Assembly (NCBI GenBank): GCA_963676105.1
Contig: OY781039.1
Location: 660,001 to 692,000 of the forward strand
Length of the DNA: 32,000 bases
Direction of reading: 5' to 3'
Source: Erysipelotrichaceae bacterium
Lineage (GTDB): Bacteria; Bacillota_I; Bacilli_A; Erysipelotrichales; Erysipelotrichaceae
A model generated the notes under the pieces. It was not told where the DNA came from and searched no databases. It was given only the letters and a program-made list of their open reading frames with translations. Made by a program: the position numbers and the translations under genes. Positions 2,177 through 22,728 of this stretch are shown piece by piece; position 1 is the stretch's first letter; the number at the start of each line of letters is the position of its first letter.

Positions 2177-2677
2177 ATGTTGTCTGTGATAAAAACTAGC
2201 ATTACAGATTTAAAGGTTGACGCAATGGTTAATGCGGCCAATACATATCTCAGTCGAGGATCAGGTGTTTGTGGTCATATTTTTAAGGTAGCGGGACCTG
2301 AACTCGATCAAGCGTGTGCTCAAATTGGTTATTGTAACATTGGTGAAGCAGTTATTACCCCAGGTTTTAATTCTAAGGCAAAATACATTATTCATACTGT
2401 GGGGCCTAAATATTTTGAGAATCATCCTGATAAAGCCTTACAGCTTAGAAACTGTTATATAAACTCATGTCAGTTAGCATTAGATAATCACTGCACATCA
2501 ATATCATTCCCAGCTATAAGTACTGGTATTTATGGCTATCCACTTGATGAAGCTGCTGAAATAGCTGTAAAAGCTTGTAAAGATTTCCTAGATAAAACAA
2601 AAGACAGTTTAGACATTGTCTTAACTGCCTTTGATGAAAATACGTATTTAGAATTAATGAAGCAACTTAAACAATAA
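2177..2677 (+). CDS. Macro-domain protein (O-acetyl-ADP-ribose deacetylase / ADP-ribose-binding, YmdB-like)
   Basis: 166 aa. Motifs VDAMVNAANTYLSRGSGVCGHIFKVAG and SISFPAISTGIYGYP are typical of the macro fold. The ATG directly follows the CDF stop (TAAATG), implying co-transcription. Confidence 0.85.
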   Translation: MLSVIKTSITDLKVDAMVNAANTYLSRGSGVCGHIFKVAGPELDQACAQIGYCNIGEAVITPGFNSKAKYIIHTVGPKYFENHPDKALQLRNCYINSCQLALDNHCTSISFPAISTGIYGYPLDEAAEIAVKACKDFLDKTKDSLDIVLTAFDENTYLELMKQLKQ

Positions 2678-6768: not shown

Positions 6769-9359
6769 GATTGTGACTTCCTTAACTTAGAATTCTTCGT
6801 TGTGATATTTTTTAATTTAACTTCATCACCTCTATATTGACAGAAATGAAGATATGGACAATACTCACATGAATGATCAATGTTTTGTTTATGAATATCA
6901 CCAGAACTCATATCTTCATAGATTTGAGTATAAATTTCTTTTAGTCTTTCTAAAACTAAAACTTCATCATAGGCATTCGTTGTATAGAGTCCTTTAGCTT
7001 CTGTATTTTTCCATTGATTGATGTGTGAAGCATTATCAAAGTCCACATCAATATCAAATGTTATACCTTTAAGCTGTCGTTTCTTTTGTTTTTCATCTTC
7101 AAAATTGAAACCTGCTTTTGTGGTCAAATCCACACGTTCTGGTTTTTGAGAAAAATAGCCTGCAAAGATAACTTTTTTATCAATCTTAGAATAAGCCCAT
7201 AAATAAGTCGCAAGTTGTAGTGATAAACCTGCTTCAAAAAGTTTTTCACTAAAGTTCTTTACACTAGATTTATAATCAATCACGCTAAAGGCTGTAGAAG
7301 ATTCATCTATTCGATCGATTTTACCTTTTAACTGAAGTGATTGATCATTATTTAAAATCATCTCATCATTAAATTCATATTCTTGTTTGTCAGGATTAAA
7401 GCTCTTTACATTTTCCCAATCCAAAAGGAATTCTAAGGACAGTTTTAAGGTTTCTATTAACTTATATTCAATAAGCTTTAATTCTTCCTTAAAGTTTGGA
7501 TATAAGCCCTCTACAGCTTCGATATAAGGTTTTATACGCTCTTTAATTTCTGCTTCAAACATTGAAGCATAATCTTTACCTTTATCTTTAATTGCCATCT
7601 CTAAAAAGGAATGAACAATATTCCCTAATAAGGCAGAATCTAATTCATAAGATGGTTTTTCATACAAAGATAAGCCTCTTTGTAGAAAATACTTATATGG
7701 ACAATGCGTATAGGTTTCAAAAGAAGTGATACTTCCTTTTAATCCATTTCTCATAAATAATGATTGACTTAATTCAGAAGAGAGTTGATGCTCACCTTCT
7801 ACAAAGTCATTTTCATTCTCTATTAAATCCCAAGCGGCTTTATCCGCATCCTTTAAAATACTCTCTAATTCAAATGGCATCTTTTGTGCTTTACCATCAT
7901 AAGAGCCAATCGAATAGGAATAGATAATCTCATCACTAATCTTTTGAGTATGGATTAATCGTTCCATATGATAGTTATAACGTTTACTAATATCATAGCC
8001 TTTGATTTTCTTTAAATAATCCAAATCAAATAAACCACTAACATTTTCAATTTGTGGATAGTTCTTTTGAGTACAAGCTAACCAAATTTGACGTTTAAGA
8101 CCTGGAATTAAAGCATGTTTTAAATCAGTCAGGATTAAACCTGTCTTTGATTTGGATTTCAAAGTTAATTTATCTAACGCATATAAAAGAACATCAAGTT
8201 TTCTTTCACTTTGATCAATGTTTTGTAAATTAGATGATTCTAAGAACTCTTTTATGACATACATGGATGAAACTTGTTCATCATTCTCAGAATCTATACA
8301 CTTTGTATAGACTTCAAAACACTGTGATACAAATTCAATAATTCCACTACTCTCATTAGATAAATCAGTAATAATCCATCTTAGTTCACTCAAAGCTTCT
8401 TCAGCATGAGCTTCTAAGATTTCAAAGTCAGCTTGTCGTACTAAACCTTTTAAAACATCATTATTAAAAGCTGTAGGCATGTGTTGTAGTTCATTCACTA
8501 AGTCATCAACACTTGGTTTAAAGACTTCACAGTATTTGATGAGTTCTAACTTATATTTGGATTGGATCACATTGTTGTGTAGGATTTGAATAAAGTTATC
8601 TAAACTTGGTTCAGCTTTAAACATCACTAATCGTTCAAACAAACGTAGCGCTGGATGTTTTAAGCTTCCACCTACTTTTTGATAAGGTACTCCATATTGA
8701 TTTAAAAAGACTTCAACTTGATCCATCATTGATGAATCTAAACAAACAATCGATTGATCTTCATAAGCTAAATCATCATTCACAACAAATTGAACAGCTG
8801 CTTGTATTTCACTACGAGGATTTGAAGCATATCTCAATTTTCTTTTAACATCTTTTTCTTTAATTAATATTTGTTTAACACTACAATTATCTAATCGTGT
8901 TTGAATCGGATAATCATAGAAATGTTCTAATATAGAAAGTTTGCTTAAATCAGATTTTTCAAATTCAATCCATTGTCTAAATAGAGCTTTATAGATTGGC
9001 AATACAGTATCAATAACTAAAAATAAATCCTTCTCTTTATCAGTTTCAGTAGGTAAATCCCCTTGATTCCAGCCTTCATTTGCCATTAAAGATATAAATG
9101 ATGTGACTTGATCAACAGTAATTGGAAACTTTAGTACATCATTTAATACACTAACTCTTTTATCATGACTCAATACTTCTAATGCAGAAGCACATTTAAA
9201 CCAATTCTCTTCACGATGATTTTCACTTAGTGTATTTAGATACACTGAAAGTGATACAAATTCTGTATCACCTATAATGGATTGTTTCTTGAGTAAATCA
9301 AGAACATATTTTTGTTTAGATTGTGTTGGTAGTATGGTTTTCATATGTAAAATTTTCAT
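6765..9359 (-). CDS. addB: Helicase-nuclease subunit B (AddB/RexB-type; inactivated helicase scaffold plus Fe-S nuclease domain)
   Basis: 864 aa, immediately upstream of addA. The RecB-type nuclease motif is GKIDRIDESSTAFSVIDYKSS. Four Cys are arranged as in the AddB iron-staple (THCPYKYF ... CEYCPYLHFC). No N-terminal Walker A is seen. An alternative start lies at 9344, and no SD precedes either start. Confidence 0.85.
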   Translation of the reverse strand: MKILHMKTILPTQSKQKYVLDLLKKQSIIGDTEFVSLSVYLNTLSENHREENWFKCASALEVLSHDKRVSVLNDVLKFPITVDQVTSFISLMANEGWNQGDLPTETDKEKDLFLVIDTVLPIYKALFRQWIEFEKSDLSKLSILEHFYDYPIQTRLDNCSVKQILIKEKDVKRKLRYASNPRSEIQAAVQFVVNDDLAYEDQSIVCLDSSMMDQVEVFLNQYGVPYQKVGGSLKHPALRLFERLVMFKAEPSLDNFIQILHNNVIQSKYKLELIKYCEVFKPSVDDLVNELQHMPTAFNNDVLKGLVRQADFEILEAHAEEALSELRWIITDLSNESSGIIEFVSQCFEVYTKCIDSENDEQVSSMYVIKEFLESSNLQNIDQSERKLDVLLYALDKLTLKSKSKTGLILTDLKHALIPGLKRQIWLACTQKNYPQIENVSGLFDLDYLKKIKGYDISKRYNYHMERLIHTQKISDEIIYSYSIGSYDGKAQKMPFELESILKDADKAAWDLIENENDFVEGEHQLSSELSQSLFMRNGLKGSITSFETYTHCPYKYFLQRGLSLYEKPSYELDSALLGNIVHSFLEMAIKDKGKDYASMFEAEIKERIKPYIEAVEGLYPNFKEELKLIEYKLIETLKLSLEFLLDWENVKSFNPDKQEYEFNDEMILNNDQSLQLKGKIDRIDESSTAFSVIDYKSSVKNFSEKLFEAGLSLQLATYLWAYSKIDKKVIFAGYFSQKPERVDLTTKAGFNFEDEKQKKRQLKGITFDIDVDFDNASHINQWKNTEAKGLYTTNAYDEVLVLERLKEIYTQIYEDMSSGDIHKQNIDHSCEYCPYLHFCQYRGDEVKLKNITTKNSKLRKSQS

Positions 9360-10404
9360 ATAATGCTGAATACATTAATATTAATTTATCTGAATTTGTT
9401 AAATCATCATGTAACTCAAAAAATTTAAATAAAAAATCTTCATAAAACAACTTAAAAGATTTACTCCCTATTTCTAAATTGTTACTTATATTTTTTAAAT
9501 ATAATATACTTTTTTCTACATAATAGTTATATATTGGTTTGTCTGTTGGTATATGTATATCAAACAATTTTAAAAATTTATGTTCATAAATTTTTTCATC
9601 TAAAGAATTTGTTGAATCAACAAATTCTTTAAAATGTTTTATTAAATCTTTTTTAAATAACATTACTAATTCTTTATTTTTTTCAATTAAATCTTCAAAG
9701 TTATAAATATCTTTAAATAGTTCAAGTATTATCACTATACTATTTTCATATCTCCTTTTATATTCAATAATTAAATTATCAATCGTTTCATTAATGTTAA
9801 TGTGATTGTAATTAATGATTTTTTGTCCTGATGATAAGTATTCAATTTCAAGCTTTTTTAAATTTTCTGCAATAATTTCTATTACATTATATTTATTTGT
9901 TACATATTCAAAAAAATCTTTTTTTAGCAATTTAATTCTGACATCTTCACTTTTTCGAATATTCGAATATACTTCAATATGTATCATATGAGGATCAAAA
10001 TTATCATCAACAAATGGTGTATATAATAATTCACCTTTCTTTTGCCATTTACTTTTAAATTTTGAATTTAAACTATGAGCATATACAAGTTTTCTTAGAT
10101 GTTGAAAATATCCATCAAACTCATCATGATCAATCTCTAAATTTAATGAATCATTTAGTTCAGATATTCCTACACGCAATATATCGACATATACAAATAA
10201 AATTATGATATTTCCCATCCCTGATTTGGTTGATTCTGAAAATTCTAATTCATTTATATGACTAACTGAATCTTCAATTCTATCCATGAAAGCACAAATT
10301 AAATTCCATTTGTTTGAATTTTTCATACTCTCATAATAATAATTTGAAGAATTTATTAAATCTCTTAATGCTATTATTAATTTTGGATCTAAATATAATT
10401 TCAT
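9316..10404 (-). CDS. Hypothetical 362-aa helical protein; possible N-terminal HEPN-like domain (Rx5H: LRKLVYAHS)
   Basis: Long uninterrupted ORF in a very AT-rich segment (12 G+C in nt 9361-9420). Its ATG at 10404 lies 1 nt after the upstream gene's stop (TAAaATG). Its 3' end overlaps the addB start by 44 nt. R104-x5-H110 (nt 10095-10075) sits about 105 aa into a helical N-terminal region. No other motif is recognised. Confidence 0.6.
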   Translation of the reverse strand: MKLYLDPKLIIALRDLINSSNYYYESMKNSNKWNLICAFMDRIEDSVSHINELEFSESTKSGMGNIIILFVYVDILRVGISELNDSLNLEIDHDEFDGYFQHLRKLVYAHSLNSKFKSKWQKKGELLYTPFVDDNFDPHMIHIEVYSNIRKSEDVRIKLLKKDFFEYVTNKYNVIEIIAENLKKLEIEYLSSGQKIINYNHININETIDNLIIEYKRRYENSIVIILELFKDIYNFEDLIEKNKELVMLFKKDLIKHFKEFVDSTNSLDEKIYEHKFLKLFDIHIPTDKPIYNYYVEKSILYLKNISNNLEIGSKSFKLFYEDFLFKFFELHDDLTNSDKLILMYSALYENFTYENHTTNTI

Positions 10405-10405
10405 T

Positions 10406-10996
10406 TTATTTAATTCTGCCTTTAATAAAATTAGCTATCTCAATATTCACTTCATTAACTGCATCTACTTCATAATTTATAAATGAAGTTCCAATATTTA
10501 CTGATTGTCGTTTTGAGTCTATTTCACCATTTTTATTTAGATAGTCCCATTGAAGATTATAAAATTCTTGTGATGATATATTTGAACTGAACAAATACTC
10601 TTCCATTTTTACTAACAAATCTGTATATTTCCCAATAGCAGATCTAACCTTACCATCTTCTTCAAAAACTAGACTTTGACTTTGTATTTGAGAAACTGTT
10701 GATGTAAATTTCATCCGATATTCAGTTTTATGATTAATTTTACTTCTAAAAAGTTTTTTTTCATTAAAATAATCTTCAATTATTTTTATCAATAGCATAT
10801 GGTTTTCAATTAAAATTTTCCTTGTATCATTTAACATATGATATCTTTCTATTTTCTTTTCTAGTGAATACGAATATCGAAATGCTATAATAGCCCCTAA
10901 AAATAACAAAAAAATAGATATGAAAAAATCAACAAAATTAATTTTCATAAATAGATTTTCGAAAATATTTGAAATAAATTCACTAGTACCCGACAT
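10406..10996 (-). CDS. Hypothetical membrane-anchored protein (single N-terminal TM helix)
   Basis: ATG at 10996 is preceded by GGGAGGTG (11005-11012, minus strand). The ORF-track TTG at 11014 would start inside that SD. A hydrophobic helix, FVDFFISIFLLFLGAIIAF, is followed by ~155 hydrophilic residues with no recognisable motif. Hand count of 12 G+C in nt 10801-10860. Confidence 0.6.
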   Translation of the reverse strand: MSGTSEFISNIFENLFMKINFVDFFISIFLLFLGAIIAFRYSYSLEKKIERYHMLNDTRKILIENHMLLIKIIEDYFNEKKLFRSKINHKTEYRMKFTSTVSQIQSQSLVFEEDGKVRSAIGKYTDLLVKMEEYLFSSNISSQEFYNLQWDYLNKNGEIDSKRQSVNIGTSFINYEVDAVNEVNIEIANFIKGRIK

Positions 10997-11066
10997 ATTA
11001 CATACACCTCCCAATAAAATAAAAACTTTTAAATAATAATTCCCTGTTTAATATTAAATAATATCT

Positions 11067-14000
11067 TCAAACCCCACTATACTTCTCAAAATACTCATAC
11101 ATTAAACTGATAATTCTATTCTTAATTTCATCTCTATTCCCTCTAAATCGTGGAATAGCTGGTAACACTTGATCTATATCAGTTCCAGATGTTTTCATTG
11201 AACCATCTGTCAATGATCTACTCATAAACCATAATGTTTTCTCTTCATTTAAGTTCTCAGAAATTATTAGATTACTTAAGTCTTTTTCTTTTTGCTCTTC
11301 AATGTATTGAGTCCAATCAGATTTTTCCTCTAATTGTAGATTTACTCTTTCTAAGAAACCTTCAATGAGTTCTTTTTTACTTCTTAGTTCTAAACTTGAA
11401 CCAATAGCTTTTTGAATACTTACTAATATTTCTTTATCTTTGCAATTTGAATTAACATATTGTTCAATGAGTTTAAGAATATAATCAATATTTACTTCTA
11501 TTTGTTTTATAAGCTCAATTTCAAAGACTAGATCATCATTGATATTTTCTTTTTCAGGTCCTGGTCTTCTTTGCCTATATAAATCAATGTACATACTTTG
11601 ATAATCTTGGAAATCTCTTTCAGATAAGATTTGATTCCCTTCAAATTCATCAAAGGATACTAAGATATTTTTTATTTTAAGGATAGCTCCAAAAAGTTTT
11701 ATAAATGCTTTCTGATCATCTTCACTTAAGATAAGTTCTCCTAATTTAAAGTCTCTTTGTAATCTTTCAATAAAATCAACATAACCTTCTTTATGTACAT
11801 CTTGATCATCATATCCATAATAATAATCATTATAGGTTCTAAGTAATATAAGTCCTTTTGCTTCTCTATTACCAAATAAAGCTAATGCTTCATCAGTTGC
11901 TTTAGAAAGATTTCTAAAACAAACAATATTACCATAGGTCTTAACTGAGTTTAATATTCGATTAGTTCTTGAATAGGCTTGAACTAACCCATGATATTTA
12001 AGATTTTTGTCTACCCATAAAGTATTAAGTGTTGTCGCATCAAAACCTGTTAAAAACATATTAACTACAATTAAAATATCAATTTCTCTTTGTTTAACAC
12101 GTAAGGATAAATCTTTATAGTAGTTTTGAAACTTATCACTTGTATCAAAATTAGTTTTAAAGTAATCGTTATAATCATGTATTGCTTTATCTAAGAATTC
12201 TCTTTGACTGGTATTTAATTGACTTGTATCTAAATCTTCATCAGGTAAGAAATCTTCTGGTTCATCTTCATTGATGGAAAAGCTAAAGATTGTCGCTATT
12301 TTATAATCTAGATTCTTTTCAGTTATCTGTTTCTTTAATTCATTGTAGTATCTCATTGCATTCGCAATAGATGACACAGCAAAGATTGAATTAAAACCTT
12401 TTTGATAAGTATTGTGAGCACTGTATACTTTGTTTCTTCGTGTCTTTTGATCAAAGTGTTCTAGGATATATGCACTCACTTCACTAATTCTTCTAGGATC
12501 TGATAAAGCTTCTTCTTTATCAATCGCTGATATCTTTTCATCATCGATATCTTTAGATGTTTTTATAGTATTGATAAAATCAACTCTAAACTTTAATACA
12601 TTCCCATCATTAATCGCATCAATAATGGTATATGTATGTAACTTATCACCAAAAGCTTGTTCAGTGGTTTGTAAATTTGGGTTAGTCCCAGAATTCGCAT
12701 TTACCGCAAATATAGGCGTACCTGTAAAACCAAAAATATGATATTTTTTAAAAATTCTAGTAATATCTTGGTGCATTTGTCCAAATTGAGAACGATGACA
12801 CTCATCAAACACTAAAACCACATGTTTACTATAGATTTCATGTGTTTTATTTTGACTGATAAAATTATGGAGTTTTTGAATCGTTGTTATAATTATTTTT
12901 GCATTATTATCACTTAGTTGTTTAGTCAAAATCTTAGTTGATTTATTACTATTAGCAGCGCCTTTTTCAAATCGATCATATTCTTTCATCGTTTGATAAT
13001 CTAAGTCTTTACGATCAACCACAAAGAGTACTTTTTCAATTGAATTATTTAAAGTAATTAGTTGTGCTGTTTTAAAACTCGTTAATGTTTTACCAGAACC
13101 TGTTGTATGCCATATATAACCACCAGCTTGTACTTTGCCCCACGTTTTATAATTGGATGAAATCTCGATTCGATTTAAGATTCTCTCAGTAGCGGCAATT
13201 TGATAAGGCCGCATAACTAATAATAAATCTTCACTAGTAAAGACACAGTATTTGGTAATGATATTTAATAACGTATGTTTAACAAAGAATGTTTTAGTGA
13301 AATCTTCTAAATCTAAGATTTGCTTATTATTTGCATCAGCCCAATAAGAAGTAAACTCATAACTATGACTTGTTTTATTCTCAGTTCCTTTATTCCCTTT
13401 AGTTGATTCTTCAATACGTTTAAAACGTGTTGTATTGGAATAATACTTAGTATGAGTACCATTACTGATCACAAAAATTTGGATAAACTCAAATAAACCA
13501 GAATCAGCCCAAAAGCTTTCTCTTTGATAACGATTAATTTGATTAAAGGCTTCTTTTAATTCAATACCACGTCTTTTAAGCTCTATATGAATGATTGGTA
13601 AGCCATTAATTAAAACAGTAACATCATAACGATTCTTATGAGTACCACCTTCTGTTTCATATTGGTTTATAACTTGTAGAGTATTATTATGAATATTCTT
13701 TTTGTCTATTAAAGTTATATTCTTAGTTAACCCATCATCTTTAACTAAGTTTTTAACATAATCAGTTTGTATAGTTTTAGTTTTCTCAACAATACCTTCA
13801 TTCTTATTAGCTAAATAGTTTTTAACAAATTGATCCCATTCAGTATCAGAAAATTGATAATTATTCAATTTCTCTAACTGAACTTTAAGATTACTAAAAA
13901 GATCTTGTTCAGATTTGATTTCTAAGTAGGTATATCCTTGTCCTACTAGTTGTTGAATAAATTTATTTTCAAGTTGAGCTTCACTTTGATATTCAGTTGT

Positions 14001-14075
14001 TCGTTTTTTATCACTTGTGTATTCAGCAACAACTGTAGCCTCATTTGAAGCCATTACAATATTAAACTGTGTCAT
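11067..14075 (-). CDS. hsdR: Type I restriction enzyme, R subunit (HsdR)
   Basis: 1002 aa. The N-terminal PD-(D/E)xK motif is YDVTVLINGLPIIHIELKR. SF2 motifs are HTTGSGKT (I) and VFDECHRS (II), with FGFTGTP and VNMFLTGFD also present. It overlaps hsdS by 4 nt (ATGA). Confidence 0.95.
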   Translation of the reverse strand: MTQFNIVMASNEATVVAEYTSDKKRTTEYQSEAQLENKFIQQLVGQGYTYLEIKSEQDLFSNLKVQLEKLNNYQFSDTEWDQFVKNYLANKNEGIVEKTKTIQTDYVKNLVKDDGLTKNITLIDKKNIHNNTLQVINQYETEGGTHKNRYDVTVLINGLPIIHIELKRRGIELKEAFNQINRYQRESFWADSGLFEFIQIFVISNGTHTKYYSNTTRFKRIEESTKGNKGTENKTSHSYEFTSYWADANNKQILDLEDFTKTFFVKHTLLNIITKYCVFTSEDLLLVMRPYQIAATERILNRIEISSNYKTWGKVQAGGYIWHTTGSGKTLTSFKTAQLITLNNSIEKVLFVVDRKDLDYQTMKEYDRFEKGAANSNKSTKILTKQLSDNNAKIIITTIQKLHNFISQNKTHEIYSKHVVLVFDECHRSQFGQMHQDITRIFKKYHIFGFTGTPIFAVNANSGTNPNLQTTEQAFGDKLHTYTIIDAINDGNVLKFRVDFINTIKTSKDIDDEKISAIDKEEALSDPRRISEVSAYILEHFDQKTRRNKVYSAHNTYQKGFNSIFAVSSIANAMRYYNELKKQITEKNLDYKIATIFSFSINEDEPEDFLPDEDLDTSQLNTSQREFLDKAIHDYNDYFKTNFDTSDKFQNYYKDLSLRVKQREIDILIVVNMFLTGFDATTLNTLWVDKNLKYHGLVQAYSRTNRILNSVKTYGNIVCFRNLSKATDEALALFGNREAKGLILLRTYNDYYYGYDDQDVHKEGYVDFIERLQRDFKLGELILSEDDQKAFIKLFGAILKIKNILVSFDEFEGNQILSERDFQDYQSMYIDLYRQRRPGPEKENINDDLVFEIELIKQIEVNIDYILKLIEQYVNSNCKDKEILVSIQKAIGSSLELRSKKELIEGFLERVNLQLEEKSDWTQYIEEQKEKDLSNLIISENLNEEKTLWFMSRSLTDGSMKTSGTDIDQVLPAIPRFRGNRDEIKNRIISLMYEYFEKYSGV

Positions 14076-15316
14076 GATTCTAACTCCTTAAAAGTAAGAA
14101 GTTTATCCCTATAGTACTCATATTGTTTTTGTCTTGCTTCGATTTCAGCTGGTAAACCAATTTTGATATCATTCACTAATGAATCATATTGATCTAGAAT
14201 TCTTACAATCTCTTCTTGAACTTCTAGAGAAGGAAATGGAATGGTAAAGTTTCTGATAGATTCAATTGTTAAACTTGCTTGTCCAGTTCCTTTTATATTA
14301 TTTCTTATTTGGTTTTGTCCTCTTGCGGAATTCAAATAATGATAAATATAATCAATATTTATATTTTTATTAATTTTCAAAACACCAATTGCGCCACCTA
14401 AGAATGCTTTATTTTTATTAGGGAACAATCCAATATTTCCAATACTAGCACCAACAATTGATAATAATATACATCTATTATCAAGCACAATTTTAGGAAA
14501 TTTTTCTGCAACTTTAATTGGTATGTAGTAATCAGTATTAAAATTAAATTGTTTGCCAGAAAAAAACTTGGTTTGAATATAAGGTAATGAGTCACGTGAT
14601 TTTTTTAATGTTAATGATTTTTTTATATGATTAGAATAATCAAAACCAGTTTGTTTAGTAATAATGTCACACAAGCCTTCTAGTCTAATATTTTCTATTT
14701 TTGTATTATCAAAAAACTGATTAAGATAATACTCGTATTGTTTTTTTCTTGCTAAAAGTTCAGAATCAAGAACATCATTTAATTCAGTGAATTGATCTAA
14801 AATCCTAACAATTTCATTTTGAATTTCAATTGGTGGTAGTGGAATACTAAAATTTCTTAAACTCTTCATATCGACTGAACTAAAATTCCCTTGCACAAGA
14901 TTATTCTTGCACCATTCACTTACTAGTTGAAAAGCAAATAAAACAAATTCAATATTTAATACATTTTTGTATTTCGCTTTAAGAGAAAATATTGTGAATC
15001 TTTGATTCGCGACAAAGTTTGTTTTTATTAAAGCAAATTCACCAATTGTTGCAGAAGTACTTATAATAATTGAATCCTTTTTAAATGGATTGTTTTTAGC
15101 ACCTTTTAGTGTAATATGTTGTTCAGAATCATACAAAATTCTACCTTTTAATCTAATATCTTCAATCCGGTACCAAGGAACATTTCCATCATTCCAAAAT
15201 TCTTCATTTTTCTTTGAAGGAGTGTATCCACCTTTAATGTCAAATAATTCCATTAAAGATTTAAACTCAACACCATCAGGACAATATTGTTGAATAAGCT
15301 CATCTAATTTACTCAT
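14072..15316 (-). CDS. hsdS: Type I R-M specificity subunit (HsdS) with two dissimilar target-recognition domains
   Basis: 414 aa. Two variable halves are separated by the conserved repeats EIQNEIVRILDQFTEL...ARKKQYEYY (central) and EVQEEIVRILDQYDSL...ARQKQYEYY (C-terminal). It overlaps hsdM by 8 nt. Confidence 0.9.
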   Translation of the reverse strand: MSKLDELIQQYCPDGVEFKSLMELFDIKGGYTPSKKNEEFWNDGNVPWYRIEDIRLKGRILYDSEQHITLKGAKNNPFKKDSIIISTSATIGEFALIKTNFVANQRFTIFSLKAKYKNVLNIEFVLFAFQLVSEWCKNNLVQGNFSSVDMKSLRNFSIPLPPIEIQNEIVRILDQFTELNDVLDSELLARKKQYEYYLNQFFDNTKIENIRLEGLCDIITKQTGFDYSNHIKKSLTLKKSRDSLPYIQTKFFSGKQFNFNTDYYIPIKVAEKFPKIVLDNRCILLSIVGASIGNIGLFPNKNKAFLGGAIGVLKINKNINIDYIYHYLNSARGQNQIRNNIKGTGQASLTIESIRNFTIPFPSLEVQEEIVRILDQYDSLVNDIKIGLPAEIEARQKQYEYYRDKLLTFKELES

Positions 15317-16880
15317 TAGAATAGCCTTCTAATTCTTCAATAATTGAATCAATTGAGGATCTCAATTCATTAGATTTTAGTACAATTTCTTTAATTTCTT
15401 CATTTAGTACTTCGATATTAATAATTTCTCTTGTGTCTTCTTTTTCAACATAAGATGAAACAGATAAATTAAAATCATTTTCCTGAATATCTTTTAATGA
15501 GACTAATTTTGTTTTGTATTGAGCTTCTTCTCTATTTGAAAATAACTCAATAATTTTATCTTGATTATCTTGTTTGAGCTTATTATCTTTACCCTCTTTA
15601 ATGAATTCTTGAGATGCATCTATGAATAAAATATTGTTATCAGTTTTTGATTTCTTTAAAACTAGAATATCAGTCGTTATGCCTGTGCCATAAAATAGAT
15701 TTGAAGGTAGTTCAATAACCGCATCCACATAATTATTCTCAACTAAATACTTGCGGATTTGTTGTTCAGCTCCACCTCTATATAGAATGCCCGGAAATAC
15801 TACAATAGCTGCTACACCATTTGGAGCAAGCCAATGTAAACTATGCATTATAAAAGAGAAATCAGCTTTACTTTTAGGCGCAAGTGTTCCAGCCGGTGCA
15901 AATCGTGGATCATTTATAAGTAATGGATTATTGTCACCTTCCCATTTAATGGAATATGGAGGATTAGATACAATTGCTTCAAATGGTTCATCATCCCAAT
16001 GTAAAGGATTAATTAAAGTATCGCCTAAACCAATATCGAATTTATCGTAATCAATGTCATGTAAAAACATATTGATACGACATAAGTTGAAAGTTGTAGG
16101 ATTAATTTCTTGTCCATAAAATCCTTGTCTTACATTATCTTTCCCTAATATCTTTGCGAATTTTAAAAGCATTGATCCTGAACCACATGCTGGATCATAT
16201 ACTTTATTAATTGATGTTTTACCAACTAATGTAATACGTGTTACAACTTCTGATACTTCTTGTGGTGTAAAGAATTCACCACCACTCTTCCCAGCACCTG
16301 AAGCATACATACTCATTAAGAATTCATATGCATCTCCAAAGGCATCTATTGAATTATCTTGGAAATTACCTAAGTTCATGGACGCTACTCCATTCATTAG
16401 TTTAACTAATCGTTTATTTCGATCAGTTACAGTTCCACCTAATTTGTTACTGTTAACATCTATATCATCAAATAAACCCTTAAAATCTTTTTCACTTGGT
16501 GATCCTTGAGCGGATGCCTCAATATTATTAAAAACTCTTTCTAGAGTTTCATTAAGATTACTATCATTGTCAGCATTTTTATAAACATTTGAAAATAACT
16601 CACTTGGTAAAATAAAGAAACCTTTTGTAAGAATTAAATCTTGTCTTGCCTCTTCTGCTAATTTATCTTCTAGTAAACGATAATCAAAATCTTTAACTCC
16701 AGCTTTTATTTCACCAATATTTATATAATTAACTATGTTCTCTGATATATAACGATAAAACAACATACCTAGAACATATTGTTTAAAATCCCAGCCATCT
16801 ACACTACCTCTAAGGTCATTGGCTATTCCCCATATTGTCTTATGTAATTCAGCTCTTTGATTATCTCTATTCAGTGTCAT
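15309..16880 (-). CDS. hsdM: Type I R-M N6-adenine DNA methyltransferase subunit (HsdM)
   Basis: 523 aa. It has an HsdM_N-like N-terminus (LHKTIWGIANDLRG), AdoMet motif I VYDPACGSGSML and catalytic motif IV IVSNPPYS. The SD-like GGGTGGA lies upstream. Confidence 0.95.
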   Translation of the reverse strand: MTLNRDNQRAELHKTIWGIANDLRGSVDGWDFKQYVLGMLFYRYISENIVNYINIGEIKAGVKDFDYRLLEDKLAEEARQDLILTKGFFILPSELFSNVYKNADNDSNLNETLERVFNNIEASAQGSPSEKDFKGLFDDIDVNSNKLGGTVTDRNKRLVKLMNGVASMNLGNFQDNSIDAFGDAYEFLMSMYASGAGKSGGEFFTPQEVSEVVTRITLVGKTSINKVYDPACGSGSMLLKFAKILGKDNVRQGFYGQEINPTTFNLCRINMFLHDIDYDKFDIGLGDTLINPLHWDDEPFEAIVSNPPYSIKWEGDNNPLLINDPRFAPAGTLAPKSKADFSFIMHSLHWLAPNGVAAIVVFPGILYRGGAEQQIRKYLVENNYVDAVIELPSNLFYGTGITTDILVLKKSKTDNNILFIDASQEFIKEGKDNKLKQDNQDKIIELFSNREEAQYKTKLVSLKDIQENDFNLSVSSYVEKEDTREIINIEVLNEEIKEIVLKSNELRSSIDSIIEELEGYSNE

Positions 16881-17006
16881 ATTATATCCACCCTTTATTT
16901 CAACAATTCTATTTTACACTAAAAGTTGTTAATACCTTTTTAACTATCCAATATTTTGTACATAAATACTTCTTATAATTCATTCGTTTGTGATAACATT
17001 TTATTA

Positions 17007-20000
17007 ATGAACAATAATATCCCATTGCATAACGATATCTTTAATGCAATTCAGAATAATCAGTTGGTTCTTTTTTTAGGCGCAGGAGTTTCAAAATCTT
17101 TGGGACTTCCTGATTGGAAAGAGTTAACATCTAAATTACTTCAATCCTCTATTGATGATGAAGTAAGTACTTTTCTTGAAAATGAATTAATTCAGTCTTA
17201 CTTACAAAATGACTATAAAAAAATTATTTCAGTTATATTTGAGAAATATAAATTAATGAACAAAATAGATTTTTTTAATTTAAATCTTAGTCGATATTTA
17301 ACAATAACAGAATTTGATAAAACAAACCCAATATATAAATTTATAGAACTTACAAATCCGTTAGTTTTGACTACCAATATTGATAATGTATTTGATAAAC
17401 AATTCATGAAAGATAATATTTTCTATAAAGACAATTATATGGAATGGCCTAGAAGAGGCCCTTCTATAGTTCACATTCATGGAAAAATCAGTGAACCTGA
17501 TACAATTGTATTTACTGCAAGCCAATATGTTGAGAAATATTTCGATTTAGATTTTAAATATTACCTAGAAAGTATATTTACATCTGAAAAAACTATTTTA
17601 TTCTTGGGTTATAGTTTTAGTGAATTTGAATTATTAGAAAAAATATTGAGAACAATTGATAAAAAAGCAACATCTAAGATTTTCACTTTAAATGCATATT
17701 ATTCATTTCAACAAACATTAAAAGATAATATGTCAAACTATTATAAATCATTAAGAATCGAACAACTTGATTATTGTCTTGATAATTTTGGTTATAAAAA
17801 TTTTAACAACCAAATAGCAGATTGGGTACAATATTTAAAAAATCATTCTATTGATTTAACAAATCAAAAAAAAATCAGAGAGTATTTGAAAGATTACAAT
17901 AAAGAAAATTTGCATTTATTAAAACAAATAATAAAAGATAATGAAGAATACAAATTTTATGCTTTTAAGAAAATTGAACAACTTGTTAATCCAACTAAAT
18001 GGTTATTGGAATTTTCAAATAATTATTGGACTCCAATTTCTCGTGCGATTGGTTTAGATCAAAGTAAAACAAATGCAACTTGGTTTTATATTTTAACTCT
18101 ACATAGAGTTTATTTAACTACCAAAAATAAGGAAATTAAAAAATCTTTAATAAATAAAATCTTATCGCTTTCAAATAACAAAAAAATATATAAAACAAGA
18201 ATAAATTCTAATTTCATTGTGAATATTGTTTTAATCGTTATGTCATTCAAAGAATTAGTGAGCAATGAAGTAGTTAATAAGTTAATAATTTATTTTATTG
18301 ATACTCAACAAGTAGAAGATGAATTTATTATTTACCACCTAAATTCAAAAGATTATGTTAAAAGAACAACAAAAGAGCTTTATCCATTTGAATTAAAAAT
18401 TATCAAAAACTCAATTGTTTCAAATTTAGATAGTTCTATTAATAATTCTAATATCGAATTAATTACATATATAAAGAAAAATGATATTACTACATTATCC
18501 GGTTTCGAAATATGCAAATTATGCATAAACAAAATTAATGAATCAAATGATAATATTTTCTATAAATTCAACGAATTTGGAAGTATTAACAGAGTATTAA
18601 AAAACAACTATTCTTTAGATGGGCTTTATTTATTACATATTTTCTTTTATTTTTATGAAAATTTACTTACGAAAGACAAGAAAATTCTTTTAGAAATAAT
18701 TATAAAATCAAGAAAAAAAATATCTAAAAACATTTTGTTATATCTAATTTTAATAGATTACAATGAAAACAAAAAACTATTATTAACTAAAAATTTTAAC
18801 CCTTTTTATAATAGAAGTTACTTTAGTGAATTATATATATTATTAAAAGAAAAGCTTAATGATTTAGAACCAACTTTCATTGAATCATTAAAGTTCCAAA
18901 TAGATTATTATTTCAAAACCGAAAAAAATTATGATGCACATCTTTTATATATGATTGATTCAGTTAGCAAATTACTAGGATTAAAGAGCAATGATCATTT
19001 TATTGATAAAAAATATTTTAATCAATTTGAAAATTATGATAAACCTGAGGAATTTTCAGTAACAATTAAATCTTACTCTTATAGTTCAAACGATCTTGTT
19101 AGTTTTTATCACAGTAATTTCAGTAATATATATGATTTAAAAACTTTAAATAATAATTTATATAAAATAGAAATTATCTTTCCATTTACTTTGGAAGATC
19201 ATAAGCATGCTTTTGAATTGTATTTAAACAAACGAATTCACGAATTCAAAATAGATTTTTCTGAATATGAAAATTTCAATGTAGACTTTAAAGAAAATTT
19301 ATTTTGGTGTATTGCAAATAATTTAGAGAGAATTGAAAAATCGCCAGTCAAAATTATATTAAATTACTTCTTAACAAACATTGAAATATTTAATATTAAA
19401 AACCTAACAAGATTAATAAATGTATTAAGTGAGAAAGAAATTGACTTCTACTTTAATAAAGAATTCATTGATATTAAACAAAAATTAATCACTTTAATTG
19501 ATAAAGATAATTTAAAAGTTGAATTTTCTAATATTGATACTTATATTCAGAAAATAGAAAATAATTTTACATATTCTCTTTTTAGTCTTATTTTGAAGAA
19601 AGAAAAAGATATTAGCATACTAGAGAAATGTTTTAAGATTAATGATTTTTATTTTTCTTTTTTGTTAATAAATAATTATATTTTGTATGAATTAAATCCT
19701 GGTTGGTTTATTAAAATGTTTGAATCATTTATAAAAAATGCTTCAACAAAAGAAAAAAATAAATTGGTTTCACTTCTTTTTCTAAAGAGATGCACAGACA
19801 AAATATATGAATTAATAATATCAGAAAAATTTTTTATAGATTTTGTAAATTCTAACATCGATAAAGAAACATTTTATCTTTCACATTTAAAAAGAATATC
19901 TATACAATATATTTTACATAATCTTATTTTGAAAAATTATAAATCTGACTCGGTACTGTTATTAATTCTCAATAGAAATAACACTGTGAATATCGTGGAT

Positions 20001-20462
20001 GCTTTTGATGTTTTAAGATATTTACAAGAACTATATTCAAATAATAAAAACTATTTAAAAATTACAAATAATATTATCAATTTCTATTTATGTGAGTTAG
20101 AGACAGTTGAAATCTCGAAATCTAACGCAAATCATGTTTATATTTACTTTATTGATGTAATAAACAAATTAAATGTAATAAATATTAATACATTGAATTC
20201 CTTAGAAAATTTGATAAGATTTTATTCAGGTAGTTATACAAATGAATTTTACAAATTACTACTAAGAGTTGTAAAAAAATATCCGGAAAAAGTAATTAAT
20301 ATTATGAAAATTACAGCAAATAATACAGAGTCTTACAAACATGATGAAAATAATATTGTTAAAATATTAAAAATTTTAATTAAAATGAAAATTGAAAATG
20401 CTCATCAATTAATCTCAGAGTATCAAGCCATTGGTTTTGACTTGGAAGACATAAATTTCTAA
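17007..20462 (+). CDS. Large SIR2-domain protein (N-terminal SIR2_2-type NADase-like domain plus ~870-aa uncharacterised helical C-terminal region); DSR-like defence candidate
   Basis: The ORF track starts at TTG 16956. The first ATG is at 17007, just before the domain. SIR2 motifs are LVLFLGAGVS, LVLTTNIDNVFD, IVHIHGKISEPDTIVFTASQY and ILFLGYSFSEFE. The remainder has no recognisable motif. It is extremely AT-rich (10 G+C in nt 18661-18720). Confidence 0.85.
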   Translation: MNNNIPLHNDIFNAIQNNQLVLFLGAGVSKSLGLPDWKELTSKLLQSSIDDEVSTFLENELIQSYLQNDYKKIISVIFEKYKLMNKIDFFNLNLSRYLTITEFDKTNPIYKFIELTNPLVLTTNIDNVFDKQFMKDNIFYKDNYMEWPRRGPSIVHIHGKISEPDTIVFTASQYVEKYFDLDFKYYLESIFTSEKTILFLGYSFSEFELLEKILRTIDKKATSKIFTLNAYYSFQQTLKDNMSNYYKSLRIEQLDYCLDNFGYKNFNNQIADWVQYLKNHSIDLTNQKKIREYLKDYNKENLHLLKQIIKDNEEYKFYAFKKIEQLVNPTKWLLEFSNNYWTPISRAIGLDQSKTNATWFYILTLHRVYLTTKNKEIKKSLINKILSLSNNKKIYKTRINSNFIVNIVLIVMSFKELVSNEVVNKLIIYFIDTQQVEDEFIIYHLNSKDYVKRTTKELYPFELKIIKNSIVSNLDSSINNSNIELITYIKKNDITTLSGFEICKLCINKINESNDNIFYKFNEFGSINRVLKNNYSLDGLYLLHIFFYFYENLLTKDKKILLEIIIKSRKKISKNILLYLILIDYNENKKLLLTKNFNPFYNRSYFSELYILLKEKLNDLEPTFIESLKFQIDYYFKTEKNYDAHLLYMIDSVSKLLGLKSNDHFIDKKYFNQFENYDKPEEFSVTIKSYSYSSNDLVSFYHSNFSNIYDLKTLNNNLYKIEIIFPFTLEDHKHAFELYLNKRIHEFKIDFSEYENFNVDFKENLFWCIANNLERIEKSPVKIILNYFLTNIEIFNIKNLTRLINVLSEKEIDFYFNKEFIDIKQKLITLIDKDNLKVEFSNIDTYIQKIENNFTYSLFSLILKKEKDISILEKCFKINDFYFSFLLINNYILYELNPGWFIKMFESFIKNASTKEKNKLVSLLFLKRCTDKIYELIISEKFFIDFVNSNIDKETFYLSHLKRISIQYILHNLILKNYKSDSVLLLILNRNNTVNIVDAFDVLRYLQELYSNNKNYLKITNNIINFYLCELETVEISKSNANHVYIYFIDVINKLNVININTLNSLENLIRFYSGSYTNEFYKLLLRVVKKYPEKVINIMKITANNTESYKHDENNIVKILKILIKMKIENAHQLISEYQAIGFDLEDINF

Positions 20463-20828
20463 TATTGGCTAATGTATAAATCAATTAAGATAATATCTAA
20501 AATTATGCAATCATCTATTCTAGTGATTCCGAATTTAACATTATTTGGATTTCCTGCATTAATAACTAACATATTTTTCATAGAACCTTTGTTAAATATA
20601 ATTTCTTTTTATCGACTGGTATTTTTATTATTTCAGGTAGAACTCCTTCAATAGGCTCAGTAAATTATTTAGTAAATTATTGGATTTTTGTACTTTTACT
20701 ATTTTTTACTGATTGGTTAATAAATTTTATTAATATTCATGCGCTTCTAGTGTTTTTATTATTTCAATAATGTATATTACTTTTTATTTAAAAGTAATAA
20801 ATCAATGTTGATTCTGAATGATTTTTAA

Positions 20829-20852
20829 TATAAAAAATCGCTTTCGCGATTT
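20829..20852 (-). terminator. Rho-independent terminator of the bgl/PTS operon
   Basis: On the minus strand, AAATCGC-gaaa-GCGATTT (20852-20835) is followed by TTTA..T. The stem overlaps the EIIA stop codon. Confidence 0.6.
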
Positions 20853-21378: not shown

Positions 21379-22728
21379 TTATACCGTTTCGACGTCGTCG
21401 AAGCCAAGTACCCAAGTGACTACAAAGGCTACTACCATCGCAATAATCATGGTTGCGATTGCCATATACATGTTACCTAGTGAGCCATCAGGTGCAATGA
21501 ATGTAGGAAGTGCAAACCAACCTGGTGAAACAATACCATATTGTTTTAAACCAACAATACCTGCAAATAATCCACCAACTGCACCACCAGCAACTGCGCC
21601 AATGAATGGTTTTTTAAATGGGAGTAAGATCCCAAAGATTGAAGGTTCTGTAATCCCTAAGATACCTGTTAAACCAACAGATGAAGCTAATGCTTTGGTA
21701 TCAGTAACTTTTGATTTAGCGAATACTGCAAGTGCTGCTGCACCAACAGCTACGTTAGCTGCAAGCATACCAGGCATAACAAAGGCGTCATAACCAAATT
21801 CAGCAAACGAAGCGATAACAGGTGGGAATAATGCTTGGTTCATACCAGTCATAACTAAGAATGGAGTAAATGCACCCATTAATGATACTGATAACCAACC
21901 TAAGTAAGTATTAACCCATACTAAGAAAGCTGCTAACCATTGGCCTGCAATAACGCCAATTGGACCTAAAGCAATTAAGGTTACAGGAACCATGATAATC
22001 ATCACAAGTAATGGACGTAAGAAGAATTTAACCGCATTAGGTGTAAATTGATCAACATATTTGTCTACAAAGTACATCACGACAACACCAAAGATAATTG
22101 GTAATACAGATGAACTGTAGTTTTGTGCTGCAATACCCATACCTAAGAAGTTAAGTTCAACACCATTAATTGGAGCTGATAATAAAACAGCTGCTAAGAA
22201 AGCCCCCATGAATGGGTTTAAACCAATTTTACGAGCTGCTGAGAAACCAACAAATATTGGTAAGAAAGCAAAGCCTGCAGTATTAATGGATGATAAGACA
22301 GTATAGGTACCTGAGGTGGCATCCATTCCCATAAAAGTCGTACCGATGGTTAGTACAGCATTAATTAAACCTGCTGCAACTAAGATAGGTAGTAAAGGAA
22401 CAAAAGTTCCTGATACAAAATTAATAATGGTTCCCCAAATGGATTTTGTTCCATCATCATTGACTTTTCCACCTTTTTTGAAGTTTCCAAGTTTTACAAA
22501 TTCTTGATATAAATTAGGAACATCAGTCCCAATAACACATTGAATTTCATTTCCTCTTTCAACTAGACCCATGACACCTGCTACTTTTTTAACAGCTTCA
22601 TAATCTGCGTTTTTTGGATCATTTAATGTGATTCTTAAACGAGTTGCGCAATGATTTACGCCTCCTACGTTTGCTTCCCCACCGACTGCTTCTAAAATAT
22701 TATTAGCTAATTCTGTGTATTTACTCAT
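21379..22728 (-). CDS. PTS beta-glucoside-family EIIBC permease
   Basis: 449 aa. The N-terminal EIIB phospho-Cys motif is VNHCATRLRITL, followed by a polytopic EIIC domain. Confidence 0.9.
   Translation of the reverse strand: MSKYTELANNILEAVGGEANVGGVNHCATRLRITLNDPKNADYEAVKKVAGVMGLVERGNEIQCVIGTDVPNLYQEFVKLGNFKKGGKVNDDGTKSIWGTIINFVSGTFVPLLPILVAAGLINAVLTIGTTFMGMDATSGTYTVLSSINTAGFAFLPIFVGFSAARKIGLNPFMGAFLAAVLLSAPINGVELNFLGMGIAAQNYSSSVLPIIFGVVVMYFVDKYVDQFTPNAVKFFLRPLLVMIIMVPVTLIALGPIGVIAGQWLAAFLVWVNTYLGWLSVSLMGAFTPFLVMTGMNQALFPPVIASFAEFGYDAFVMPGMLAANVAVGAAALAVFAKSKVTDTKALASSVGLTGILGITEPSIFGILLPFKKPFIGAVAGGAVGGLFAGIVGLKQYGIVSPGWFALPTFIAPDGSLGNMYMAIATMIIAMVVAFVVTWVLGFDDVETV

What the first reader, a model, noticed from the sequence alone, without database searches (positions are those of the whole stretch)
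16956..20462. Giant, extremely AT-rich SIR2-domain protein divergent from the type I R-M operon: a candidate single-gene NAD+-depleting defence with an unrecognisable ~870-aa C-terminal region
The first ~300 aa form a clear SIR2_2-type core. Its motifs are LVLFLGAGVS (GAG codons at nt 17079-17087), LVLTTNIDNVFD (Asn141, ORF-track numbering), IVHIHGKISEPDTIVFTASQY (His175, nt 17478-17480) and ILFLGYSFSEFE. The Asn/His pair that defence sirtuins (ThsA, DSR1/DSR2, SIR2-HerA) use to hydrolyse NAD+ is therefore intact.

The remaining ~870 aa (about nt 17850-20462) contain no motif I recognise. They are rich in I, N, K, L and F and look all-helical and solenoid-like.

The gene stands alone on the plus strand, 126 nt from the divergent hsdM start. 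It is much more AT-rich than its neighbours: 10 G+C in nt 18661-18720, against 27 in nt 21541-21600 of the PTS gene and 24 in nt 12661-12720 of hsdR. This suggests foreign origin.

An N-terminal effector with a huge C-terminal putative sensor follows the logic of DSR-type abortive-infection sirtuins. The sensor part may belong to a new family.
Basis: partly seen in the sequence, partly recalled or inferred. Interest (0 to 1): 0.8.

Follow-up and report, generated by a model that had tools for sequence, protein, structure and literature searches.

The report
Highly divergent DSR1 anti-phage sirtuin
This 1151-residue gene is a very divergent, rare member of the already known DSR1 family of single-protein anti-phage defences (an NAD+-destroying SIR2 enzyme fused to a large helical sensor), so it is a known kind of system and not a new one.

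Summary
The likely start is ATG 17007 (1151 aa), not TTG 16956. Residues 1-285 form a SIR2_2 domain with the GAG loop, Asn124 and His158 intact. Residues 286-1151 are all-helical and match nothing in Pfam, NCBIfam or PDB sequences.

The "unrecognisable" C-terminal region is nevertheless homologous to the DSR1 C-terminal domain:
- PADLOC's Dsr1 model PDLC04166 aligns end to end (E 2.4e-58).
- Profile-profile comparison of the C-terminal region alone with canonical DSR1 C-terminal domains gives 99.2% probability, E 1e-19, over 836 collinear columns. Reversed and shuffled controls score no higher than 41, against 171.

I could not compare it directly with the experimentally tested EcDsr1.

The lineage is very rare. 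Only two other members and one fragment turned up among 1.84 billion protein representatives. One member is split into SIR2 and sensor genes.

Likely mechanism: a phage protein binds the helical sensor and switches on SIR2 NAD+ hydrolysis.

Verdict: new member of a known kind, low to moderate interest.

The parts
17007..20462 (+). DSR1-like gene: 1151 codons plus stop. The ORF-track start at TTG 16956 is probably not used.
17007..17861 (+). N-terminal SIR2 (SIR2_2, DSR1-subtype) NADase domain, residues 1-285. The model gives a Rossmann-type alpha/beta fold with pLDDT above 90.
   Evidence: Pfam SIR2_2. PADLOC Dsr1 scores 177 bits on residues 1-300, against 68 for LmuA and 43 for ThsA. Foldseek TM 0.70-0.73 to the DSR2 SIR2 domain and to KomC. 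The split homologue ends its SIR2 gene at the equivalent of about residue 290.
17079..17087 (+). Gly25-Ala26-Gly27 codons of the NAD-binding GAGxS loop.
   Evidence: invariant in alignments A1 and A7
17376..17378 (+). Asn124 codon (TTN motif), a catalytic Asn of defence sirtuins.
   Evidence: aligns with the KomC TTN motif
17478..17480 (+). His158 codon (IHG motif), the catalytic His.
   Evidence: It aligns with KomC His146, the residue mutated in PDB 9xvc 'KomC(H146N)'.
17862..20459 (+). C-terminal all-helical solenoid, residues 286-1151. It is remotely homologous to the DSR1 C-terminal (sensor) domain.
   Evidence: hhalign 99.2%, E 9.6e-20, 836 columns; controls; single sequence 97.6%; all-alpha in the models; no Pfam or PDB-sequence match
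16881..17006 (.). 126-nt AT-rich divergent intergenic region between hsdM and the DSR1-like gene; presumed promoters. There is no clear Shine-Dalgarno sequence before ATG 17007, whereas hsdM has one.
   Evidence: Only weak consensus promoter matches, not above shuffled expectation.
11067..16880 (-). Neighbouring type I R-M operon hsdM-hsdS-hsdR. It is a separate defence system in the same low-GC block, not part of the DSR1 unit.
9316..11014 (-). Two uncharacterised low-GC ORFs (362 and 202 aa) downstream of hsdR. They form the left end of the low-GC block and their function is unknown.
   Evidence: no Pfam, PADLOC, NCBIfam or PDB match; GC 21-24%

Best explanation
The gene encodes a deeply divergent member of the DSR1 (defence-associated sirtuin 1) family. 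DSR1 is a single-polypeptide anti-phage system.

Proposed mechanism:
1. In uninfected cells the roughly 865-residue helical C-terminal domain holds the N-terminal SIR2 domain inactive.
2. During infection a phage protein binds the C-terminal solenoid. By analogy this is a structural protein: major capsid protein for E. coli Dsr1, tail tube for DSR2.
3. The resulting conformational or oligomeric change activates SIR2.
4. SIR2 hydrolyses NAD+ through the Asn124/His158 site.
5. Loss of NAD+ stops phage replication, with or without growth arrest of the cell.

Shown here: the domain architecture, intact catalytic motifs, homology of both halves to DSR1, the stand-alone gene organisation, and the position in a low-GC block next to type I R-M.

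Inferred: NADase activity, autoinhibition, the nature of the trigger and the infection outcome.
For: **Family assignment**
- PADLOC Dsr1 PDLC04166 is the only defence model matching the whole protein: residues 7-1147 against model positions 12-1218 of 1227, 195.8 bits, E 2.4e-58.
- The SIR2 part is of the DSR1 subtype: 177 bits, against 68 for LmuA and 43 for ThsA.
- Catalytic Asn124 and His158 and the GAG loop are conserved. His158 aligns with catalytic His146 of KomC.

**C-terminal homology**
- A 3-sequence subfamily profile against 21 canonical DSR1 C-terminal domains: hhalign 99.2%, E 9.6e-20, 836 collinear columns.
- Controls scored 28 (reversed), no more than 18 (column-shuffled) and no more than 41 (block-shuffled), against 171 for the real alignment.
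- The window C-terminal region alone against 48 canonical domains: 97.6%, E 2.9e-12, 800 columns. Its thirds map in order.
- All 23 full-length (about 1190-1370 aa) proteins used for this comparison match PDLC04166; two checked individually score above 1500 bits.

**Structure**
- The AlphaFold model has pLDDT 78.8 and pTM 0.64: a SIR2 fold followed by about 45 helices.
- The best PDB matches are full-length DSR2 chains, E 6e-9.

**The C-terminal domain behaves as a swappable sensor module**
- It occurs fused to SIR2, TIR or other N-termini, and as a separate gene right after a roughly 300-aa SIR2 gene.

**Context**
- The gene is adjacent to type I R-M in a low-GC block.
- Homologue P0002 sits on an integrase-bearing element.

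**Literature**
- DSR1 depletes NAD+ on phi29 infection (bioRxiv 10.1101/2021.12.14.472415).
- EcDsr1 is triggered by phage major capsid protein through its TPR-like sensor (PMC12803255).
Against: - The C-terminal similarity is very weak at sequence level: about 17% identity, and only 9 bits when the C-terminal region alone is scored against the PADLOC model.
- An exhaustive HMMER search with the subfamily's C-terminal profile did not retrieve canonical DSR1.
- I could not compare it with the experimentally tested EcDsr1 or Garb's DSR1 sequences. The link to a validated protein therefore runs through PADLOC's family definition.
- PADLOC's three Dsr1 models cross-match only weakly in the C-terminal domain.
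- Global structural superposition on DSR2 is poor, TM about 0.2.
- No Shine-Dalgarno sequence precedes the start codon.
- There are no functional data for this clade.
Confidence: 0.78

Rival explanations
1. One reading: a SIR2 effector fused to a genuinely new sensor family that is unrelated to the DSR1 and DSR2 C-terminal domains.
For: - No Pfam, NCBIfam or PDB-sequence match in residues 286-1151.
- The C-terminal region alone scores only 9 bits, E 0.052, against the PADLOC Dsr1 model.
- An exhaustive HMMER search finds only 3 relatives and a fragment.
Against: - Collinear, end-to-end profile-profile match to canonical DSR1 C-terminal domains, with clean controls.
- Shared nearly invariant positions across 62 sequences: W900, W1027, Y968, N402, P744 and others.
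- The same length and the same domain boundary as DSR1, including the same fused and split variants.
Confidence: 0.08
2. The gene works as part of a multi-gene system with its neighbours: the divergent type I R-M operon or the two unknown low-GC ORFs. It would not be an autonomous single-gene defence.
For: - It is immediately adjacent to hsdMSR, sharing a 126-nt divergent control region.
- Two unannotatable ORFs lie in the same low-GC block.
Against: - Homologues P0002 and the L002-L004 loci have no R-M genes beside them.
- Canonical DSR1 is a validated single-gene system.
- Clustering of independent systems in defence islands is the norm (established knowledge).
Confidence: 0.07
3. It is an inactive relic, or a non-defence sirtuin such as a protein deacylase or ADP-ribosyltransferase with a scaffold domain.
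For: - Extreme composition and no Shine-Dalgarno sequence.
- Very few relatives.
Against: - A 3.4-kb frame remains open at 21% GC, with a chance probability of about 1e-52.
- Catalytic motifs are conserved across homologues at 30% identity.
- It scores 10 bits against a 243-bit cutoff for CobB-type deacylase.
- There is no Zn-ribbon cysteine motif; the SIR2 domain has a single Cys.
Confidence: 0.05
4. It is a DSR2-type protein: a tail-tube sensor with a HEAT-like C-terminal domain that forms tetramers.
For: Full-length DSR2 chains are the top Foldseek PDB hits, E 5e-8 to 6e-9.
Against: - No PADLOC Dsr2 model matches, even at E <= 1.
- TM is only about 0.2, with rmsd of 20-40 A.
- PDB sequence searches with the C-terminal profiles do not find DSR2.
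- The similarity is one of architecture class only.
Confidence: 0.02

Closest known systems
DSR1 (defence-associated sirtuin 1), the clade modelled by PADLOC HMM PDLC04166
   Same: - N-terminal SIR2_2 of the same subtype, with catalytic Asn and His.
- A C-terminal helical domain of about 870-940 residues that aligns collinearly end to end.
- Similar total length: 1151 aa against about 1190-1250.
- Stand-alone gene.
- Both fused and split (SIR2 gene plus sensor gene) forms exist in both lineages.
   Different: - About 17% identity in the C-terminal domain and about 30% in SIR2.
- HMMER alone cannot bridge the C-terminal domains.
- Extreme I/N/K/L/F/Y composition.
- The lineage has only 3 members and one fragment in 1.84 billion representatives.
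E. coli Dsr1 (WP_029488749.1; Gao 2020; PMC12803255)
   Same: SIR2 effector plus a large helical-repeat sensor in a single gene. That sensor is reported to be triggered by phage major capsid protein and to be shared with other effectors (Avs7, nucleases, kinases). This parallels the effector swapping I saw for this C-terminal domain family.
   Different: Direct homology of the C-terminal domains was not tested because no sequence was available. The trigger of the window protein is unknown. No STAND-fused relatives appeared in my C-terminal domain search.
DSR2 (Bacillus subtilis; e.g. PDB 8wkn, 8wy8, 8wya)
   Same: Architecture class: an N-terminal SIR2 NADase (TM 0.70-0.73 to the isolated domain) plus a long alpha-solenoid, activated by a phage structural protein.
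   Different: No sequence or profile match in the C-terminal domain. Global TM is about 0.2. It is a different PADLOC family.
ThsA (type I Thoeris) and KomC SIR2 NADases
   Same: SIR2 catalytic core. His158 aligns with KomC His146. Significant sequence and fold matches to the first ~210-290 residues (sequence 16-214, fold ~290 columns).
   Different: These have a SLOG domain or partner proteins and are activated by small-molecule signals. They lack the roughly 865-aa solenoid.

Membership tests
DSR1 | N-terminal SIR2_2 domain of the DSR1 subtype | tested here: met
   Pfam SIR2_2, E 1.6e-17. Residues 1-300 score 177 bits against PADLOC Dsr1 PDLC04166, against 68 for LmuA and 43 for ThsA.
DSR1 | Intact NAD-binding GAG loop and catalytic Asn and His | tested here: met
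   G25-A26-G27, N124 and H158 are invariant in alignments with DSR1 proteins. The codons were verified. H158 aligns with KomC H146.
DSR1 | Large (about 900 aa) helical C-terminal domain homologous to the DSR1 C-terminal domain | tested here: met
   hhalign 99.2%, E 9.6e-20, 836 collinear columns. Controls scored no more than 41 against 171. Window sequence alone: 97.6%, E 2.9e-12. HMMER alone is marginal: 9 bits against the PADLOC model, 25.5 bits against my canonical profile.
DSR1 | End-to-end collinear match to the family model | tested here: met
   Residues 7-1147 against model positions 12-1218 of 1227, E 2.4e-58.
DSR1 | Single-gene system with no conserved partner gene | tested here: met
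   It is the only plus-strand gene between hsdM and the PTS operon. Neighbours differ in the homologues' loci.
DSR1 | C-terminal domain homologous to that of an experimentally validated DSR1 (EcDsr1 WP_029488749.1, or the DSR1 of Garb et al.) | not testable with these tools
   The sequences could not be obtained: no supplements are held, and the E. coli collection cannot be searched by protein. Indirect evidence: the PADLOC Dsr1 clades PDLC04166 and PDLC04167 cross-match in the C-terminal domain, E 7.6e-10.
DSR1 | Infection-triggered NAD+ depletion and phage resistance | not testable with these tools
   This needs experiment. Literature basis for the family.
DSR2 | Match to DSR2 family models or the DSR2 C-terminal domain | tested here: not met
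   No Dsr2 model matched at E <= 1. C-terminal profiles do not find DSR2 chains in PDB sequences. Foldseek hits to DSR2 have TM of about 0.2.
Thoeris ThsA | C-terminal SLOG domain and an adjacent ThsB (TIR) gene | tested here: not met
   ThsA models match only the SIR2 part, residues 8-224. No TIR gene lies nearby.
SIR2-HerA | Adjacent HerA ATPase gene | tested here: not met
   The neighbours are hsdM/S/R, two unknown ORFs and PTS genes.
Classical sirtuin deacylase (CobB/Sir2) | Match to deacylase models and a Zn-binding Cys4 module | tested here: not met
   NCBIfam scores 10.2 bits against a 243-bit cutoff. There is only one Cys in residues 1-285.

The most novel reading that the evidence does not exclude
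The window protein, P0002 and the split L002 pair form a distinct, extremely rare DSR1-like lineage. Its sensor has diverged so far (about 17% identity, beyond HMMER's reach) that it may recognise a different phage component from that seen by characterised DSR1 or DSR2. This would be in an under-sampled AT-rich host lineage. More broadly, the DSR1 C-terminal domain appears to be a portable sensor cassette. It exists fused, split at two conserved points, or attached to TIR and unknown effectors.
Probability: 0.3. Interest if true: 0.4.

Novelty: new member of a known kind. Interest (0 to 1): 0.25.

Why it matters
The locus adds a type I R-M plus DSR1 defence block to an under-sampled low-GC bacterium. 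It also shows how far DSR1 sequences can drift while keeping their architecture. That is useful for improving family models, since HMMER on the C-terminal domain alone misses the link.

DSR1 is still poorly characterised and has no solved structure. A compact, highly divergent member and its naturally split relative could help define the domain boundary, the conserved sensor positions and the range of triggers.

It does not open a new class of immunity.

Tried and rejected
**Searches for relatives**
- The word-index homologue search saturated on low-complexity words and gave only 6 hits.
- An exhaustive HMMER search with the C-terminal profile returned only P0001, P0002, P0026 and a 92-aa fragment.
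- No relative above 27% identity was found in 185k species-representative genomes or in JGI metagenome contigs; plasmids gave only SIR2-domain matches.
- There were no relatives at all in the phage collection or in IMG/VR.

**Structure comparison**

**Obtaining EcDsr1 or Garb's DSR1 sequence**
- No usable supplements are held.

**Identifying the organism**
- The exact-sequence look-ups carry no names. One look-up was wasted on wrong minus-strand coordinates.
- The contig look-ups were not on record.

**Island boundaries**
- No tRNA gene was found.
- There are no convincing flanking repeats.
- No integrase family matched among the window ORFs scanned.

**Expression signals**
- The promoter and terminator scan was uninformative in this AT-rich DNA: 51 hits against 42 expected.

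**Other ideas rejected**
- An early shallow hhalign (2 sequences against 3) gave only 20% probability. Deeper profiles superseded it.
- No Pfam family other than SIR2_2 (so no DUF4020) matches either this protein (E <= 1) or canonical PDLC04166-type DSR1 (E <= 0.01).
Full report
**Observation**

The ORF 16956..20462 (+) is present as described. No other frame across it stays open for more than 69 codons. At this composition (A 42%, T 36%), 1151 stop-free codons have a chance probability of about 1e-52. The coding frame is therefore maintained by selection.

The listed TTG start is probably not used. An identical 1151-aa protein beginning MNNNIPL at ATG 17007 is on record (P0001). The closest homologue also starts at the equivalent position.

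All quoted motifs, codon coordinates and G+C counts are exact. In 1151-residue numbering the catalytic residues are Asn124 and His158.

**Composition**

The gene has 21.1% GC. Flanking housekeeping genes (addA/addB-like, PTS, GH1, rpiR) have 30-38%.

The low-GC block runs from about 9316 to 20850. It also holds two unannotatable ORFs (21-24% GC) and the hsdRSM operon (27-30% GC). GC3 in the block is 12-17%, against 19-29% outside it. This fits horizontal acquisition.

Much of the gene's extreme AT-richness lies in codon positions 1 and 2, because I, N, K, L, F and Y make up about 60% of residues. No tRNA or convincing flanking repeat marks the block, and no integrase family matched among the ORFs I scanned.

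**What the protein is**

Pfam finds only SIR2_2, at residues 119-220, E 1.6e-17. PADLOC finds a single family, Dsr1 model PDLC04166. It aligns end to end: residues 7-1147 against model positions 12-1218 of 1227, 195.8 bits, E 2.4e-58.

I split the protein to see where that score comes from. The first 300 residues give 177 bits. That is far above LmuA (68 bits) and ThsA (43 bits). Residues 301-1151 alone give only 9.2 bits, E 0.052, though still collinear against model positions 314-1218. The PADLOC hit alone therefore does not settle whether the C-terminal domain is homologous.

**Testing C-terminal homology**

- The word-index search found one full-length relative, P0002 (1167 aa, 30% identity). 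It also found canonical DSR1 proteins P0003-P0005, which score above 1500 bits on PDLC04166.
- An exhaustive HMMER search of 1.84 billion representatives with the C-terminal profile of the window protein plus P0002 returned those two, P0026 (859 aa) and a 92-aa fragment. At plain-HMM sensitivity the C-terminal domain really is isolated.
- A genome scan supplied 23 full-length PDLC04166-type DSR1 proteins (about 1190-1370 aa).
- Profile-profile comparison of the subfamily C-terminal domain (3 sequences) with 21 canonical C-terminal domains gave 99.2% probability, E 9.6e-20, score 171. It covered 836 aligned columns spanning both domains end to end.
- Controls scored 28 (reversed), no more than 18 (12 column shuffles) and no more than 41 (8 block shuffles).
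- The window C-terminal region alone against 48 canonical C-terminal domains gave 97.6%, E 2.9e-12, 800 columns. Its three thirds map in order onto the profile.
- In a 62-sequence alignment a dozen positions are nearly invariant across both lineages, including N402, P744, W900, Y968, W1027 and Y1139.

I conclude that the C-terminal region is a remote but genuine homologue of the DSR1 C-terminal domain.

**Structure**

With 62 sequences, AlphaFold gives mean pLDDT 78.8 and pTM 0.64. The SIR2 domain exceeds 90. It is followed by about 45 helices and no strands. A shallower run had given pLDDT 71 and pTM 0.36.

Foldseek against the PDB puts full-length DSR2 chains first, at E 6e-9. However, TM is about 0.2 and rmsd is 20-40 A. 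Isolated SIR2 domains of DSR2 and KomC superpose at TM 0.70-0.73.

**The C-terminal domain behaves as a module**

A search with the canonical C-terminal profile retrieved this domain in four settings:
- fused to SIR2_2;
- fused to TIR_2 (P0076, P0080, P0087, P0092, P0109);
- fused to unidentified N-termini;
- as stand-alone proteins of about 925-955 aa.

In about 40 of the 80 genome loci, a roughly 300-aa DSR1-type SIR2 gene is followed directly by a roughly 930-950-aa C-terminal-domain gene. The stop and start usually overlap by 1, 4 or 8 nt. Five Burkholderiales loci share a second split point (506 + 750 aa).

The window's own subfamily has a split member. In L002-L004 a 292-aa SIR2 gene ends in TAA and the 859-aa sensor gene starts 9 nt later in the same frame. 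This fixes the domain boundary near residue 285-300. It also supports an effector-plus-sensor division of labour.

**Context**

The gene is divergent from hsdM-hsdS-hsdR, a complete type I R-M system. Downstream lies a PTS/GH1/RpiR sugar operon.

P0002 lies on a 15-kb contig with a tyrosine integrase and several Cro/C1-type HTH genes, which suggests a mobile element. None of the homologue loci has an R-M neighbour, so I see no obligatory partnership.

No relative above 27% identity turned up in species-representative genomes or JGI metagenome contigs, plasmids gave only SIR2-domain matches, and phage and IMG/VR contigs gave none. I could not identify the organism. It has a 1.96-Mb chromosome of about 30% GC.

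**Mechanism**

From the literature:
- DSR1 expressed in B. subtilis depletes NAD+ transiently on phi29 infection and blocks the phage without culture collapse (10.1101/2021.12.14.472415).
- E. coli Dsr1 is activated by a phage major capsid protein through a bilobed TPR-like sensor shared with Avs7 (PMC12803255).
- DSR2 is activated by tail-tube protein.

By homology, I propose that a phage protein binds the helical C-terminal domain and relieves inhibition of the SIR2 NADase, whose active site includes Asn124 and His158. Loss of NAD+ then stops replication.

The architecture and homology are shown here. The activity, the trigger and the outcome are inferred.

**Limits**

I could not obtain EcDsr1 or the Garb DSR1 sequence. 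Membership is therefore established relative to PADLOC's Dsr1 clade PDLC04166. That clade cross-matches clade PDLC04167 in the C-terminal domain at E 7.6e-10. It is not established relative to a validated protein. DSR1 itself was still described as poorly characterised in 2026 (PMC13464706).

**Verdict**

The 'DSR-like single-gene NADase defence' reading is right. The 'new sensor family' reading is not supported.

A standard PADLOC run would probably label this gene Dsr1. It is a new, unusually divergent and rare member of a known kind. Interest is low to moderate.

Noticed in passing
Loci L016, L017, L022, L023, L025, L028, L032, L033, L035, L039, L043, L044, L046, L048, L049, L051, L052, L058-L060, L063, L064, L067-L070, L073, L077, L079, L083 (SIR2 ORF ends near locus position 10,900 in most): About half of the PDLC04166-type DSR1 loci in species-representative genomes are two-gene operons. 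A roughly 300-aa SIR2 gene is followed by a roughly 930-950-aa sensor gene, usually with a 1-, 4- or 8-nt stop/start overlap. This points to a naturally split DSR1, not to pseudogenes.
   Followed up: partly
L062, L065, L066, L072, L078 (ORFs 9965-11485 and 11482-13737 or equivalent): Burkholderiales loci (Massilia, Paraburkholderia, Ralstonia, Rhodoferax) share a second conserved split point. The first gene covers SIR2 plus the first ~200 residues of the sensor (506 aa). A 750-aa gene follows, overlapping by 4 nt.
   Followed up: partly
L002:828-4295 (also L003, L004): The window subfamily's third member is split. A 292-aa SIR2 gene ends in TAA, and the 859-aa sensor gene starts 9 nt later in the same frame. 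The arrangement is identical in contigs from two metagenome samples.
   Followed up: yes
Proteins P0076, P0080, P0087, P0092, P0109 (TIR); P0081, P0082, P0090, P0093 (unknown N-termini); P0107 (PF16289): The DSR1-type sensor domain is also found fused to TIR_2 and to unidentified N-terminal domains of about 150-350 aa. This suggests effector swapping on a common sensor. PADLOC recognises these proteins only through the Dsr1 C-terminal domain.
   Followed up: partly
window 9316-10404 (-) and 10406-11014 (-): Two ORFs (362 and 202 aa; GC 21% and 24%) lie directly downstream of hsdR on the same strand. They have no Pfam, PADLOC, NCBIfam or PDB match. They could be uncharacterised defence or accessory genes of the same island. 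The 362-aa ORF overlaps the annotated addB-like start by 44 nt.
   Followed up: partly
window 2177-2677 (+): A macro-domain protein (O-acetyl-ADP-ribose deacetylase / ADP-ribose-binding type, E 3e-47) lies 14 kb from the SIR2 gene. It is probably unrelated housekeeping, but it acts on a sirtuin or NADase product.
   Followed up: no
window 3493-9359 (-): The AddA/AddB-like genes score well below NCBIfam's equivalog cutoffs (447 against 708 bits; 90 against 904 bits). Most window proteins sit in clusters of one to three members. The host therefore seems to be a poorly sampled lineage, and its identity could not be established.
   Followed up: partly
L001:7161-7685 and 13599-14729: Homologue P0002 is preceded by an Xre-type HTH gene on the same strand. 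It lies on a contig with a tyrosine integrase and further Cro/C1-type HTH genes, so it probably sits on an integrative mobile element.
   Followed up: partly
window 16987-17009 and 16881-16900: No Shine-Dalgarno-like sequence precedes ATG 17007 (TTTGTGATAACATTTTATTAATG). The divergent hsdM has one (AAGGGTGGA upstream of its ATG). This may indicate weak or unusual translation initiation of the acquired gene.
   Followed up: no
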